A stretch of 64,000 nt of DNA. Source: a phage. The stretch is taken from assembly GCA_021525805.1 (NCBI GenBank), contig GCA_021525805.1_3940.1. One strand, given 5' to 3'. The notes below the pieces were generated by a model. It saw only the letters and a list, made by a program, of their open reading frames with translations, did no database searches and had not been told where the DNA came from. Positions 4,540 through 47,153 of this stretch are shown in pieces; within the stretch, counting starts at the first letter, position 1; each line of letters starts with the position of its first letter. The position numbers and the translations under genes are program-made.

Positions 4540-5892
4540 ATGTGGAATCCAATTGTTAATGTAGATATTACATTGAACACCGCAGGAACTACAAGAGAAG
4601 GTTTTGGGCTGCCACTATTTTTAGCTTCAACAGATAATTTTGAAGAAAGGGTGCGTGGCTACACTTCCTTAACTGAAGTTGCTGAAGATTTCGATGAAAG
4701 GTCTGCTGCATATAAGGCTGCTAAACAACTTTGGAGTCAGACTCCTAAAGTAACTCAGCTTTATATTGGGAGACGCGCTATGCAGTACACTGTATCAATT
4801 CCTGATGAGGTTACTGAGAGCACAGATTATTCTTTAACTGTAGCTGTGAGCGGTGGAGTTTCTCAACCATTCCAGTATACAGCACAGACATCAGATACCG
4901 CTGAGAAAGTGCTACAGCAGTTCAAAACACAGATTGAAGCTGACCCAACAATTAAAGATAAGGTCACTGTGAATGTAACTGGTAGTGCTGGTTCTGCCAC
5001 AATGATTATTACCAAAGCTGGTGATAATGACTTTGTGAAAGTAACAACCACAGCACAGACTGTATATATTGCAAGTACAACTGCCGATACAGCATCAACT
5101 GCTCTGGCAGCCATTGAAGCTTATTCTACTGACTGGTATTTCATTGCAGCAGAAGATAGGACTCAACAGTTTGTCTTAGCAATGGCTTCTGAGATTCAGG
5201 CTCGCAAGAAAATCTTCTTTACAGCTAACTCCGATGTAACAGCCCTGCAAGGTACAGAATTAGCCAGTGCAAATGATGTTCCAGCACAGCTTGCTAAGAA
5301 TATGTACACTCGTACAATTTGCTTGTGGCATCACACAGCAGCAGAAGATTACCCAGAGATGGCATACATTGCTTATGGTGCTCCATATGATGCAGGTTCA
5401 ATTGCTTGGGGTAATGCTCAGCTAACTGGTGTAGCAGCTTCTCTACAACCATCTAATAAGAGACCTCTGACAAGTATCCAGAAGTCAGCTTTAGATGCAC
5501 GTCACTGTAACTTTATTGACCTTGATGGTGGTGTTCCAGTGGTTCGTAGAGGGATTACTTCTGGTGGGGAATGGATTGATATCGTCCGTGGTGTTGACTG
5601 GTTAGAATCAGACCTGAAAACTTCTCTGAGAGACTTGCTAATTAACCAGAAGGGTGGTAAGATTACTTATGATGATACTGGTATTACCCGTATTCGTCAA
5701 GTCATTGAAACCTCTCTGCAAAGAGCAGTCAACAGAAACTTCCTGTCATCTTACACAGTTAATGTTCCTAAAGCCTCTCAAGTTGCTTTAGCAGACAAGA
5801 AAGCTCGTATCCTGAAAGACGTTACCTTCGCAGGTATCTTAGCAGGTGCTATCTTGGATGTTGACTTGAAAGGTACAGTGGCTTACGAATAA
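4540..5892 (+). CDS. Tail sheath protein (candidate)
   Basis: 450 aa ORF directly upstream of a ~150 aa tube-sized ORF, chaperone pair and tape measure; call by synteny. Confidence 0.5.
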   Translation: MWNPIVNVDITLNTAGTTREGFGLPLFLASTDNFEERVRGYTSLTEVAEDFDERSAAYKAAKQLWSQTPKVTQLYIGRRAMQYTVSIPDEVTESTDYSLTVAVSGGVSQPFQYTAQTSDTAEKVLQQFKTQIEADPTIKDKVTVNVTGSAGSATMIITKAGDNDFVKVTTTAQTVYIASTTADTASTALAAIEAYSTDWYFIAAEDRTQQFVLAMASEIQARKKIFFTANSDVTALQGTELASANDVPAQLAKNMYTRTICLWHHTAAEDYPEMAYIAYGAPYDAGSIAWGNAQLTGVAASLQPSNKRPLTSIQKSALDARHCNFIDLDGGVPVVRRGITSGGEWIDIVRGVDWLESDLKTSLRDLLINQKGGKITYDDTGITRIRQVIETSLQRAVNRNFLSSYTVNVPKASQVALADKKARILKDVTFAGILAGAILDVDLKGTVAYE

Positions 5893-5907
5893 TAGAGGTA
5901 AATTGGA

Positions 5908-6354
5908 ATGGCTATGTATCAGCAATATTCCCCTAAAGACGTTGTATGTAGCTGGAACGGCATTGCTATTGAAGGCTTTGCCCCAGACTCATTCTTGCGT
6001 CTACAGAGAACATCACCACTTATTACACCAGTTGTTGGTGCAGGTGGTCAAGTTGCTCTGACAAGAAATGCAGACAAGACAGGTACTATTGAGATTGAGC
6101 TAATGCAGACTTCTCTCTCTAACCAGATGCTTTCTGCAATTCAAGCTAAACAAGACAATATGGAACTTGAAGAAGATATCTCTTCTAACTTCGTAATCTA
6201 CGACCCATCAGGCTCTGTTCTGGCAACTGGTATTAACGCTTGGTTGCAGGAGTTACCACAGATTGAACTTGGTCGTGACCAGAACTCTAAAACTTGGATT
6301 TTTGGTTGTGAGAAGTTAGACTACACTTCTACAATTCCAGCGTCAAGTGTTTAA
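5908..6354 (+). CDS. Tail tube protein (candidate)
   Basis: 148 aa ORF between sheath candidate and chaperones; followed by strong terminator. Confidence 0.5.
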   Translation: MAMYQQYSPKDVVCSWNGIAIEGFAPDSFLRLQRTSPLITPVVGAGGQVALTRNADKTGTIEIELMQTSLSNQMLSAIQAKQDNMELEEDISSNFVIYDPSGSVLATGINAWLQELPQIELGRDQNSKTWIFGCEKLDYTSTIPASSV

Positions 6355-6366
6355 TAAATCCTATAA

Positions 6367-6407
6367 GGGGGAGACTTTAAAAGGTCTTCCCCTTTTTTGT
6401 TTCTTTT
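6367..6407 (+). terminator. Rho-independent terminator after tail tube gene
   Basis: 9 bp stem gggggagac/gtcttcccc followed by TTTTTTGTTTCTTTT. Confidence 0.65.
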
Positions 6408-6427
6408 AAAAGTATTAAGGAATCACA

Positions 6428-6826
6428 ATGAAAACAGAATCTAGAGTAATTAATGGTAAGAAAGTAAATATCATTCTGCTTGGGGCAAGAGACGGTATTA
6501 AGATGTCTATGAAGTTGGGTAAAATTGTTGTCCCAACTTTTGCACAGATGCTGTCAAGTCTGACTGATAAAGATAAGAAAGAGGCTCCAATGGTTCCATT
6601 TAAAGAGCTTGTTGAAGCTTGTTTTGACAGAATTGAAGAAATTAACCTTGAAGAGATGGCTACCTTATTATTTCAAGGGGCAACTGTTGACGACTTCCCA
6701 CTTAATATTGATACGTACTTCCAAGCAAACTACGGTGAGTTTGTTGATTACTTAGTATTTGCGCTGGAGGCAAACTTCGGAAGTTTTTTCGAAGCAAGCA
6801 TTTTCAAAAGCCTAACTTCTCAGTAA
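6428..6826 (+). CDS. Tail assembly chaperone (G-like)
   Basis: Small acidic ORF directly upstream of tape measure; contains T_TTT_TTC slippery heptamer near its 3' end. Confidence 0.5.
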   Translation: MKTESRVINGKKVNIILLGARDGIKMSMKLGKIVVPTFAQMLSSLTDKDKKEAPMVPFKELVEACFDRIEEINLEEMATLLFQGATVDDFPLNIDTYFQANYGEFVDYLVFALEANFGSFFEASIFKSLTSQ

Positions 6827-6828
6827 AC

Positions 6829-7067
6829 ATGGGTAACACTCTACAGACACCACTAACTGATGCTGCTGTAGAGGCAACCTATGAAGAAGCAGACGAGATG
6901 AAATTTGTGCTTGCTATTTATGGTATGGAAGGGTGTAAAGAAACACTTGACCAACTCTTTGCTATGACATTCTCTGATTTATTATCATTGAGACAATTTC
7001 TTGAAATTCAGAGGTCGTATAAAGAGGAAATTGCTTACAACGAACTTAGAAGAGCAGGAAAAATGTA

Positions 7068-7068
<1 letters not shown>
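6829..7068 (+). CDS. Tail assembly chaperone frameshift extension (GT-like)
   Basis: -1 frame is open from the slippery site at 6784 through this ORF; immediately upstream of tape measure. Confidence 0.4.
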
Positions 7069-15066
<7,998 letters not shown>

Positions 15067-46205: not shown

Positions 46206-47153
46206 TGTAGAGCATTTTTATCACCATACCATAACGAATATGGTGAAGAGTTTTATGTCGGTCGTGCTAACATTGGTGCTGTATCTTTGAACTTACCAAT
46301 GATTTACCAGTATTCTAAAGAGAATGGTTTAGATTTCTGGAAAGAGCTTGATAAGTACCTAGAGATGATTCGCAGCTTCCACAAGAAACGTTACGAAATG
46401 ATTGCTAATATGCCAGCAAGTTCTAACCCTCTTGCATTCACACAAGGTGGTCTGTACAAAGGGAATAAGAAACCTACTGACAAGGTTGGCTGGGATATCG
46501 TGAAGTCCTTCACAGCTTCTTTTGGGGTTACTGCGCTTGATGAGCTATCTGTTCTTGCTGAAGGTAAACGACTTCATGAAGTTGGAAGCTGTAGTTTTGC
46601 ATATGATGTTCTGGAATATATCAACATGAAGACTGAAGAGTTTAAAAATGAAGACGGTTTCTTATATGCAGTCTATGGCACTCCAGCAGAATCACTTTGT
46701 GGAACTCAGCTAAAACAGTTCAGAGATATGTTTGGCGTTATCAAAGGTGTTTCTGATAAGGAATACTTTACAAACAGCTTCCATATGAATGTTGCAGCAG
46801 ACATTACACCATTTGAGAAGCAGGACTTAGAAGAACCCTTCTTCCATATCTGTAGAGGTGGTAGAATCCAGTATGTAAGAGTAGCTAACCCAGAAAACTT
46901 ATCAGCACTTAAAAGTTGTATTACAAGAGGGATGTTGAAAGGTTTTTATCAGGGACTTAACTTTGACTTAGCAATCTGTGAACATTGTGGTAACAGACCA
47001 AAGGCTGATGTTGAAGAATGTGAGGTTTGTCATTCACACGATATCTCTGTGATTAACAGGGTGTGCGGGTACTTGTCATTCACAAAAATTAAAGGTCAGT
47101 CTCGAATGAATGACGCAAAAATCGCTGAGATTCGTGACAGGATTTCTATGTAA
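46206..47153 (+). CDS. nrdD: Anaerobic ribonucleotide reductase, exon 2
   Basis: Begins CRAFLSPYHNEYGEEFYVGRANIGAVSLNLP; C-terminal glycyl-radical motif RVCGYLSF. Confidence 0.65.
   Translation, partial: CRAFLSPYHNEYGEEFYVGRANIGAVSLNLPMIYQYSKENGLDFWKELDKYLEMIRSFHKKRYEMIANMPASSNPLAFTQGGLYKGNKKPTDKVGWDIVKSFTASFGVTALDELSVLAEGKRLHEVGSCSFAYDVLEYINMKTEEFKNEDGFLYAVYGTPAESLCGTQLKQFRDMFGVIKGVSDKEYFTNSFHMNVAADITPFEKQDLEEPFFHICRGGRIQYVRVANPENLSALKSCITRGMLKGFYQGLNFDLAICEHCGNRPKADVEECEVCHSHDISVINRVCGYLSFTKIKGQSRMNDAKIAEIRDRISM

What the first reader, a model, noticed from the sequence alone, without database searches (positions are those of the whole stretch)
6784..6829. Candidate programmed -1 frameshift joining the two tail chaperone ORFs
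Heptamer T_TTT_TTC (6784-6790) lies in the zero frame near the end of the 132 aa chaperone ORF. The -1 frame is open from there through the downstream 79 aa ORF. This matches the conserved G/GT chaperone frameshift of tailed phages, positioned directly before the tape measure gene.
Basis: partly seen in the sequence, partly recalled or inferred. Interest (0 to 1): 0.45.

Follow-up and report, generated by a model that had tools for sequence, protein, structure and literature searches.

The report
Known tail-chaperone frameshift of FelixO1-like phages
This is the usual programmed -1 ribosomal frameshift that lets a tailed phage make a short and a long tail-assembly chaperone from one start codon; it is real on comparative evidence, but it is already annotated and published for phages of this same group.

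Summary
The window is a FelixO1-like myophage (Felixounavirus, about 98% identical to many E. coli and Salmonella phages). T_TTT_TTC (6784-6790) is in phase in the 132-aa chaperone ORF (6428-6826, Pfam Phage_TAC_15). The -1 frame is open from 6790 to 7068, giving a predicted 213-aa fusion that ends on the tape-measure start codon.

Comparative evidence is strong:
- 69 of 71 sources carry an in-phase T_TTT_TTY with a 78-99-codon open -1 frame. This includes relatives at 27-44% identity that were retrieved without using the slip region.
- Third-codon-position identity peaks at 0.95 over the site, against 0.35-0.55 elsewhere.
- The ORF2 ATG has no Shine-Dalgarno sequence and is not conserved.
- Of 72 in-phase heptamers in the window, only this one extends a product.

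Two possible stimulators exist: GGAGG 14-15 nt upstream, and a 121-nt structure starting 4 nt downstream (z -3.7). Both are lineage-limited and lack covariation support.

The frameshift is already annotated in GenBank (phages Meda and Michonne) and stated in the Moogle and Mijalis genome papers. I found no experimental proof in this subfamily. Verdict: supported, already known, low interest.

The parts
4540..5892 (+). Tail sheath gene (context)
   Evidence: phrog_205 tail sheath E=8e-124 and Pfam DUF3383. Annotated as tail sheath in VpaE1, FelixO1 and Michonne.
5908..6354 (+). Presumed tail tube gene, annotated 'virion structural protein' (context)
   Evidence: Pfam KPP10_Orf10 and phrog_280. 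It sits between sheath and chaperone as in other myophages. The tube assignment is inferred from position.
6365..6394 (+). Intrinsic terminator between the tube gene and the chaperone gene
   Evidence: 13-bp stem with 6 G-C pairs followed by a T-run. Annotated as a terminator in the Meda and Michonne records.
6428..6826 (+). Short tail assembly chaperone (G-like), 132 aa, product of standard decoding
   Evidence: Pfam PF21822 Phage_TAC_15 E=1.2e-18, 68.3 bits against a cut-off of 22. phrog_1613 E=5e-48.
6766..6770 (+). Shine-Dalgarno-like GGAGG, candidate upstream stimulator
   Evidence: [quoted passage not shown] 2014. Present in Felixouna-, Susp- and Mooglevirus and in Pectobacterium phage Arno18. 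Absent in the Erwinia, Hafnia and Yersinia relatives, which use synonymous Leu-Glu-Ala codons. Function not shown.
6784..6790 (+). Slippery heptamer T_TTT_TTC (P-site UUU, A-site UUC, both tRNA-Phe)
   Evidence: In phase. Conserved as T_TTT_TTY in 69 of 71 sources. The slippage annotated in Michonne at record position 47149 converts to locus position 1854, inside that locus's heptamer at 1851-1857.
6790..7068 (+). -1 frame extension (T-like part): 92 codons plus stop. It contains the listed 79-aa ORF 6829-7068.
   Evidence: Open -1 frame. phrog_4963 tail assembly chaperone E=3e-55. Predicted fusion = join(6428..6790, 6790..7068) = 213 aa, the same length as the joined CDS Meda_064.
6794..6914 (+). 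Candidate downstream stimulatory structure: a 121-nt domain closed by a long-range stem (6794-6806 pairs with 6899-6903 and 6907-6914)
   Evidence: MFE -36.3 kcal/mol, z -3.67, 0 of 200 shuffles fold as well. It meets the Sharma-2014 hairpin rules. The 3' arm and nearly all of the 5' arm were invariant in 32 unique sequences of three genera, so there is no covariation. The 3' arm is absent in the Erwinia, Hafnia, Yersinia and Pectobacterium relatives. Function not shown.
7068..9275 (+). Tape measure protein gene; its ATG overlaps the fusion stop (TAATG)
   Evidence: Pfam TMP_3 E=9e-17 and phrog_4036 E=0. The overlap is visible.

Best explanation
Most ribosomes translating the chaperone mRNA from ATG 6428 terminate at TAA 6824-6826 and make the 132-aa G-like chaperone. 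A minority slip when UUU (6785-6787) is in the P site and UUC (6788-6790) is in the A site. Both tRNA-Phe molecules re-pair one base back on UUU UUU, and C6790 is read again as the first base of CGA. Translation then continues in the -1 frame to TAA 7066-7068. The result is a 213-aa fusion: 121 residues shared with the short form plus a 92-residue T-like extension. By analogy with lambda gpG/gpGT and P2 E/E+E', the shared part would bind the tape measure protein. The extension would recruit the tube protein, so that tube and sheath assemble around the tape measure at a fixed short-to-long ratio. Shown here: the sequence anatomy, the family assignment and the deep conservation. Inferred: that slippage occurs, its efficiency, any role for the upstream GGAGG or the downstream structure, and the assembly function.
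For: - Anatomy: the phase of the heptamer and the open -1 frame are confirmed.
- Family and gene order: ORF1 is Phage_TAC_15, ORF2 is phrog_4963, TMP follows immediately, and sheath and tube lie upstream.
- Non-circular conservation: loci fetched using only ORF1 residues 1-109 all carry the arrangement. This covers 31 of 31 IMG/VR loci and 17 of 17 examined metagenomic loci at 27-77% identity. The total is 69 of 71 sources.
- Third-codon-position identity among 11 diverse fusions is 0.95 at GSFFRSK and FRSKHFQ, against 0.35-0.55 elsewhere. By blastn, the Erwinia phages match the 673-nt query only at window 6773-6813.
- The Ser codon is AGT and the Phe-Phe codons are TTT TTC in the relatives aligned. 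Across all 69 sources the heptamer is T_TTT_TTC in 64 and T_TTT_TTT in 5.
- The ORF2 ATG is not conserved. The first Met of the extension is at codon 57 in Erwinia phages and 37 in Hafnia phages, and one Felixounavirus contig has ATA in its place. No Shine-Dalgarno sequence precedes ATG 6829.
- This is the only one of 72 in-phase heptamers in the window that extends a product.
- U_UU.C is the second most shift-prone tetramer in E. coli, and UUN A-site codons with an all-pyrimidine heptamer are favoured (PMC4066793).
- P2, another contractile-tail phage, shifts at TTTTTTG (PMC3091744).
- The same join is annotated in Meda and Michonne and stated for Moogle and Mijalis.
Against: - I found no protein-level evidence for the fusion in any Ounavirinae phage.
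- No stimulatory element is conserved across the subfamily. RNAalifold gives -1.4 kcal/mol for the consensus, and the local 40-nt fold is no better than shuffles.
- The phase of the T-run is fixed by the conserved Ser-Phe-Phe, so sequence alone cannot fully separate ribosomal from transcriptional slippage.
- Part of the nucleotide conservation 3' of the heptamer is explained by double coding rather than by a signal.
Confidence: 0.87

Rival explanations
1. The frame change is made by RNA polymerase, not the ribosome. Slippage on the T6 run adds one extra U to a fraction of transcripts, and standard translation of those transcripts gives the same fusion.
For: One extra T puts the two ORFs in frame, as the T7 sequence of phage CL1 shows. 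A weak terminator-like hairpin (6764-6780) sits directly before the T-run. Nascent-RNA hairpins can stimulate polymerase slippage (review PMC5009743).
Against: From general knowledge, not tested here: efficient slippage by bacterial RNA polymerase needs longer homopolymer runs, around 8-9 or more. The hairpin has only 6 pairs, two of them G-U, and does not appear to be kept in the Erwinia, Hafnia and Yersinia relatives (my reading of the alignment; not folded). The run is kept at exactly six T followed by C in 64 of 69 sources rather than lengthening, although C is also forced by the -1 codon CGA, since TGA would be a stop. The heptamer is a good ribosomal motif in E. coli.
Confidence: 0.05
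2. There is no recoding. The 79-aa ORF is translated independently from ATG 6829 as a separate small chaperone, and the heptamer is just the codons for a conserved Ser-Phe-Phe.
For: An ATG exists at 6829 in this window and in most Felixounavirus genomes. Most GenBank records annotate two separate genes.
Against: No Shine-Dalgarno sequence lies upstream of 6829. The ATG is lost or displaced in Mooglevirus, Erwinia, Hafnia, Yersinia and Pectobacterium relatives and in one Felixounavirus contig, yet the -1 frame stays open back to the heptamer in all of them. The -1 peptide RSKHFQKP upstream of the ATG is conserved. The synonymous choices AGT, TTT and TTC are fixed.
Confidence: 0.04
3. The shift happens in the same overlap but at another site. 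One candidate is the in-phase U_UUC tetramer at 6802-6805 (ATT TTC), by A-site-only slippage.
For: The tetramer is in phase inside the window of roughly 6748-6826 where a -1 shift would be productive. U_UU.C is the second-best tetramer in E. coli.
Against: Tetramers without a strong stimulator are barely above background in E. coli: 0.147% against 0.112%. This tetramer is not kept in the Pectobacterium-like cluster (ATC CTG) or in the more distant relatives, whereas the heptamer is.
Confidence: 0.03

Closest known systems
Annotated tape-measure-chaperone frameshift of FelixO1-like phages: Salmonella phage Meda MH586731 (Meda_064), Citrobacter phage Michonne NC_028247, and the genome papers for Citrobacter phages Moogle and Mijalis
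   Same: It is the same locus in the same subfamily; the Meda region is 96.9% identical to the window. The joined CDS has the same length (213 aa). The slippage position given for Michonne falls inside the same TTTTTTC.
   Different: Nothing substantive. Those annotations are also predictions. Most other records of the genus, including FelixO1 itself, still list two separate genes.
Bacteriophage lambda gpG/gpGT -1 frameshift (Levin 1993; Xu, Hendrix and Duda 2004, 2013, 2014, as summarised in PMC5009743)
   Same: Both have two overlapping ORFs just before the tape measure gene and a -1 shift near the end of the first ORF. In both, the short and long products share an N-terminus. For lambda, neither product is found in the virion.
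   Different: Lambda is a siphophage, and from my own knowledge its heptamer is G_GGA_AAG. I did not compare the sequences directly; ORF1 falls in Pfam Phage_TAC_15, whose relation to lambda gpG I did not check. In this phage the partner of the extension would be a tube inside a contractile sheath.
Bacteriophage P2 E / E+E' frameshift (Christie et al. 2002, as described in PMC3091744)
   Same: Both are contractile-tail phages with the order sheath, tube, chaperone, extension, tape measure. Both have a T6-based heptamer (TTTTTTG in P2) and a -1 shift. No hairpin is required in P2.
   Different: The last base differs: G in P2, so the A-site codon is UUG (Leu), against C here, giving UUC (Phe). 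The P2 products are smaller (91 and 142 aa against 132 and 213 aa). Sequence relatedness was not tested here.
E. coli dnaX and IS911 tripartite -1 frameshift signals (upstream Shine-Dalgarno-like sequence, heptamer, downstream structure)
   Same: The window has all three kinds of element in positions that satisfy the published search rules.
   Different: Neither flanking element is conserved across the subfamily or supported by covariation. The structure starts only 3 nt after the motif and is closed by a long-range stem, unlike the compact dnaX hairpin.

Membership tests
G/GT-type tail assembly chaperone frameshift of tailed phages (Xu, Hendrix and Duda 2004) | Two overlapping ORFs located between the major tail or tube gene and the tape measure gene | tested here: met
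   Sheath 4540-5892, tube 5908-6354, ORF1 6428-6826, ORF2 6829-7068, TMP 7068-9275.
G/GT-type tail assembly chaperone frameshift of tailed phages (Xu, Hendrix and Duda 2004) | The upstream ORF belongs to a tail assembly chaperone family | tested here: met
   Pfam Phage_TAC_15 at 68.3 bits against a cut-off of 22; phrog_1613.
G/GT-type tail assembly chaperone frameshift of tailed phages (Xu, Hendrix and Duda 2004) | [quoted passage not shown] | tested here: met
   T_TTT_TTC at 6784-6790, 11 codons before the stop; the -1 frame is open for 92 codons.
G/GT-type tail assembly chaperone frameshift of tailed phages (Xu, Hendrix and Duda 2004) | The slippery site and the frame arrangement are conserved in relatives | tested here: met
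   69 of 71 sources, down to 27% identity, retrieved without using the slip region. The two exceptions are homopolymer-length variants in CL1 and in an UNVERIFIED record.
G/GT-type tail assembly chaperone frameshift of tailed phages (Xu, Hendrix and Duda 2004) | The downstream ORF lacks its own conserved translation start | tested here: met
   No Shine-Dalgarno sequence before ATG 6829. The ATG is absent or displaced in other genera, and is ATA in one Felixounavirus contig.
G/GT-type tail assembly chaperone frameshift of tailed phages (Xu, Hendrix and Duda 2004) | Two proteins with a common N-terminus are produced at a fixed ratio, and both are needed for tail assembly | not testable with these tools
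   This needs a western blot, mass spectrometry or genetics. No such data were found for Ounavirinae.
Canonical bacterial -1 programmed ribosomal frameshift signal | An X_XXY_YYZ heptamer that allows both tRNAs to re-pair in the -1 frame | tested here: met
   UUU and UUC re-pair on UUU UUU. A-site re-pairing from ZZN to ZZZ and an all-pyrimidine motif are the favoured classes in E. coli.
Canonical bacterial -1 programmed ribosomal frameshift signal | [quoted passage not shown] | tested here: inconclusive
   GGAGG at 6766-6770 fits the rule in the window and in four lineages. It is missing in the Erwinia, Hafnia and Yersinia relatives.
Canonical bacterial -1 programmed ribosomal frameshift signal | A downstream stimulatory structure 4-10 nt after the motif | tested here: inconclusive
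   The 121-nt domain 6794-6914 has z -3.67. The arms are essentially invariant, so there is no covariation. It is not conserved in distant relatives, and RNAalifold finds nothing.

The most novel reading that the evidence does not exclude
In the Felixouna-, Susp- and Mooglevirus clade, the chaperone frameshift may be driven by a dnaX-like tripartite signal. Its parts would be GGAGG 14 nt upstream and an unusually long-range 13-bp stem closing a 121-nt domain that starts 3 nt after the heptamer. Sister lineages (Erwinia, Hafnia, Yersinia and Pectobacterium phages) keep the heptamer but have lost or replaced the stimulators. If so, frameshift efficiency, and hence the short-to-long chaperone ratio, would be tuned by lineage.
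Probability: 0.2. Interest if true: 0.3.

Novelty: already known. Interest (0 to 1): 0.12.

Why it matters
Practically, it is an annotation point. Most Felixounavirus records, including FelixO1 and the structurally solved Bas63, list two separate 'chaperone' genes, where a joined CDS with ribosomal slippage is better supported. Biologically, it adds one more well-conserved example to a long-established rule and opens no new question. The one mildly new observation is how deeply the T_TTT_TTY site is kept in this chaperone family, down to about 27% protein identity. The possible flanking stimulators are lineage-specific and could be tested quickly with reporters.

Tried and rejected
- A compact hairpin or pseudoknot right after the heptamer: the 40-nt and 67-nt folds are no better than shuffles (z 0.0 and +1.3).
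- A structure conserved across the subfamily: the RNAalifold consensus is -1.4 kcal/mol and pairs only distant columns.
- The 8-bp hairpin at about 6838-6872: it is not kept in Mooglevirus.
- A hairpin CUUCGGAA/UUUCGAAG that encloses the slippery run itself: it would be melted by the ribosome, and I judge it a by-product of the Asn-Phe ... Phe-Glu codons.
- Rfam: no family matches near threshold in 6600-7100.
- PDB sequence search with the fusion: nothing relevant, best E = 0.88.
- The nucleotide block conserved 3' of the heptamer (6791-6815) read as an RNA signal: I rejected this as the main explanation. The 0-frame tail E-A-[S/A]-I-[F/L]-K stays conserved as protein in the Pectobacterium-like cluster where the nucleotides differ, and the block is absent in more distant relatives that keep the heptamer. 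Double coding is enough to explain it.
- Literature search for protein-level evidence of the fusion in Ounavirinae, including the Bas63 cryo-EM and PhageMaP papers: none found.
- Phage-encoded tRNA-Phe: there are no tRNA genes in the window.
- Structure prediction and the large protein-database searches were not run, because the Pfam and PHROG assignments already settle family membership.

Full report
**Identity of the window.** The region 5900-7300 is 98% identical over its full length to many FelixO1-like myophages of E. coli, Salmonella and Shigella (genus Felixounavirus, subfamily Ounavirinae). About 300 phage records match in total, including Suspvirus, Mooglevirus, Kolesnikvirus (Erwinia), Hafnia, Yersinia and Pectobacterium phages.

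**Check of the observation.**
- The sequence reads ...GGA AGT TTT TTC GAA GCA..., with T6784-T6789 and C6790.
- ORF1 (6428-6826, 132 aa) has codons TTT at 6785-6787 and TTC at 6788-6790. T_TTT_TTC is therefore in the X_XXY_YYZ phase, 121 codons into the ORF.
- ORF2 (6829-7068, 79 aa) is in the -1 frame. Re-reading C6790 gives CGA AGC AAG CAT TTT CAA AAG CCT ..., open for 92 codons to TAA 7066-7068.
- That stop overlaps the ATG of the next gene at 7068 (TAATG).
- The predicted fusion is 213 aa.
- The heptamer by itself is not remarkable: 72 in-phase X_XXY_YYZ heptamers occur in ORFs of at least 100 aa in this 39%-GC window. Only this one gives a -1 product extending more than 30 codons beyond the 0-frame stop.

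**What the genes are.**
- ORF1 matches Pfam PF21822 Phage_TAC_15 (tail assembly chaperone): E = 1.2e-18, 68.3 bits against a cut-off of 22. It also matches phrog_1613.
- ORF2 matches phrog_4963 (tail assembly chaperone) and no Pfam family.
- The gene at 7068-9275 is the tape measure protein (Pfam TMP_3; phrog_4036).
- Upstream lie the presumed tube gene (5908-6354) and the sheath gene (4540-5892).
- A strong intrinsic terminator (6365-6394) separates tube from chaperone. It is annotated as a terminator in related records.
- This is the canonical myophage order: sheath, tube, G-like, T-like, tape measure.

**Conservation, tested without circularity.**
- I aligned only the N-terminal 105-114 residues of ORF1 from seven diverse relatives, stopping before the ALEANFGSFF region. 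I used that alignment to fetch loci from IMG/VR and from metagenomes.
- All 31 IMG/VR loci carry an in-phase TTTTTTC. The -1 frame is open for 92-94 codons in 30 of them, and the remaining locus (L039) is cut short by its contig end.
- All 17 examined metagenomic loci, at 27-77% identity to ORF1, carry an in-phase T_TTT_TTC or T_TTT_TTT at the homologous place, with 78-99 open -1 codons.
- Over everything fetched, 69 of 71 sources have the arrangement. Some sources are duplicate copies of the same phage.
- The two exceptions are homopolymer-length variants. Phage CL1 has T7, which fuses the ORFs and is annotated as one 213-aa gene. Its record has a second homopolymer indel within the 2.6 kb aligned. 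The UNVERIFIED record GE_vB_B3 has T5 plus other small deletions. Both are most simply sequencing errors.

**Nucleotide-level signal.**
- In a codon alignment of 11 diverse fusions, pairwise identity at third codon positions is 0.35-0.55 along the whole protein. It rises to 0.95 in the 7-codon windows GSFFRSK and FRSKHFQ.
- By blastn, the Erwinia phages (43% protein identity) match the 673-nt query only at window 6773-6813, at 92.7% identity.
- AGTTTTTTCGA is invariant in nine lineages, so the synonymous choices AGT, TTT and TTC are fixed.
- C at the last position is also forced by the -1 codon CGA, because TGA would be a stop.
- The block conserved 3' of the heptamer (6791-6815) is doubly coded. 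The 0-frame tail E-A-[S/A]-I-[F/L]-K stays conserved as protein in the Pectobacterium-like cluster even where the nucleotides differ. More distant relatives keep the heptamer without the block. I therefore attribute the block mainly to double coding, not to an RNA signal.

**The 79-aa ORF is not an independent gene.**
- No Shine-Dalgarno sequence precedes ATG 6829 (CCTAACTTCTCAGTAAACATG).
- The ATG is not conserved. The first Met of the extension is at codon 57 in Erwinia phages and at codon 37 in Hafnia phages. It is displaced in Mooglevirus, and one Felixounavirus contig has ATA.
- In every case the -1 frame remains open back to the heptamer, and the peptide RSKHFQKP upstream of the ATG is conserved.

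**Stimulatory elements.**
- There is no compact hairpin just downstream: the 40-nt fold is -2.3 kcal/mol with z = 0.
- I applied the published search rules of Sharma et al. 2014 (PMC4066793) and found two candidates.
[quoted passage not shown] It is present in Felixouna-, Susp- and Mooglevirus and in Pectobacterium phage Arno18. It is replaced by synonymous non-Shine-Dalgarno codons in the Erwinia, Hafnia and Yersinia relatives.
- Candidate (b) is a 121-nt domain at 6794-6914, closed by a 13-bp long-range stem. The stem pairs GCAAGCAU (6794-6801) with GUGCUUGC (6907-6914), and UUUCA (6802-6806) with UGAAA (6899-6903).
- Its MFE is -36.3 kcal/mol with z = -3.67, and 0 of 200 shuffles fold as well. 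The corresponding values are z -4.25 in SUSP1 and z -2.86 in Michonne.
- The outer 8 bp can also form in a fourth metagenomic lineage, L052.
- Among 32 unique sequences of three genera, 6776-6823 has one variable column and the 3' arm region 6895-6914 has none. Elsewhere roughly every third base varies.
- That pattern is suggestive, but because the arms barely vary there is no covariation.
- The 3' arm is absent in the Erwinia, Hafnia, Yersinia and Pectobacterium relatives. RNAalifold over all lineages finds nothing. The spacer is only 3 nt.
- The stimulators are therefore possible, lineage-limited and unproven. Lambda and P2 do without such structures, so their absence elsewhere does not weaken the frameshift itself.

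**Mechanism.**
- The likeliest mechanism is tandem -1 slippage of two tRNA-Phe molecules from UUU UUC to U UUU UU, followed by decoding of CGA.
- In E. coli, U_UU.C is the second most shift-prone tetramer after A_AA.G. UUN A-site codons and all-pyrimidine heptamers are favoured, and cognate A-site re-pairing from ZZN to ZZZ is the main rule (PMC4066793).
- P2, also contractile-tailed, shifts at TTTTTTG to make E and E+E' (PMC3091744).
- By analogy with lambda (PMC5009743), the shared part would bind the tape measure protein. The extension would recruit the tube protein, with neither product expected in the virion.
- These functional steps are inferred, not shown.

**Rivals.**
- Transcriptional slippage on T6 would give the same product, as the CL1 T7 frame shows, and a weak hairpin precedes the run. 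From general knowledge, six T is short for bacterial RNA polymerase slippage, and the hairpin does not appear to be conserved.
- Independent initiation at ATG 6829 is contradicted by the start-codon evidence above.
- A shift at the in-phase U_UUC tetramer (6802-6805) is possible but far less favourable and is not conserved.

**Comparison with what is known.**
- The feature is already on record. Salmonella phage Meda (same genus, 96.9% identical here) has a joined CDS labelled 'Tape measure chaperone frameshift product', with the same 213-aa length.
- Citrobacter phage Michonne has a joined CDS with 'ribosomal slippage (47149)'. That position converts to locus position 1854, inside that locus's heptamer at 1851-1857.
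[quoted passage not shown] 2004.
- Most other records, including FelixO1, VpaE1 and SUSP1, still annotate two genes.
- I found no experimental demonstration in Ounavirinae. The Bas63 cryo-EM paper and the PhageMaP essentiality study do not address it.

**Verdict.** The feature is an ordinary, already known member of the conserved tail-chaperone frameshift, so interest is low. The small residual novelty lies in the depth of conservation of T_TTT_TTY in this chaperone family and in the untested, lineage-specific flanking elements.

Noticed in passing
window 6365-6394: A strong intrinsic terminator (13-bp stem, 6 G-C pairs, T-run) lies between the tube gene and the chaperone gene. It is annotated as a terminator in the Meda and Michonne records. 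It probably lowers expression of the chaperone and tape measure relative to sheath and tube.
   Followed up: partly
L010 (Escherichia phage CL1, OK040806) 1357-1363; L070 (GE_vB_B3, MG969406) about 648-670: CL1 has T7 instead of T6 at the slip site, so the two ORFs are fused and annotated as one 213-aa chaperone. The record has another homopolymer indel within the 2.6 kb aligned. The UNVERIFIED record GE_vB_B3 has T5 plus other small deletions. Both are probably homopolymer sequencing errors.
   Followed up: partly
L029 (IMGVR_UViG_3300045988_004167), position equivalent to window 6829-6831: The ATG of the 79-aa ORF reads ATA in this otherwise typical Felixounavirus contig, which is consistent with the ORF not needing its own start codon.
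   Followed up: partly
GenBank MG065664.1 ('Campylobacter phage A132') and GU169904.1 ('Staphylococcus phage SA1'): Both records carry a FelixO1-like chaperone region 96-97% identical to the window. Given the named hosts, this suggests contaminated or chimeric assemblies.
   Followed up: no
window 7066-7070: The fusion's stop codon and the tape measure start codon overlap as TAATG. This suggests translational coupling of the tape measure to ribosomes finishing the long form.
   Followed up: no
window 6764-6780: A weak terminator-like hairpin (6 pairs, two of them G-U) lies directly before the T6 run. Together with the run it matches the simple terminator pattern. It does not appear to be conserved in Erwinia, Hafnia or Yersinia relatives (read from the alignment, not folded), and it overlaps the GGAGG motif.
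   Followed up: partly
L064 and L066-L069 (metagenomic and viral contigs; three of them are 87-94 kb): Distant relatives (27-31% identity to ORF1) use T_TTT_TTT rather than T_TTT_TTC at the homologous site. L064 has several in-phase heptamers (TTTAAAG, TTTTTTT, GGGAAAG) that all open into the same -1 frame.
   Followed up: partly
GenBank LR597663.1 (Escherichia phage VpaE1_ev78) 43159-43831: The features listed under the chaperone region are named head closure, tail completion and tail sheath. The annotation in that record therefore seems offset or mislabelled.
   Followed up: no
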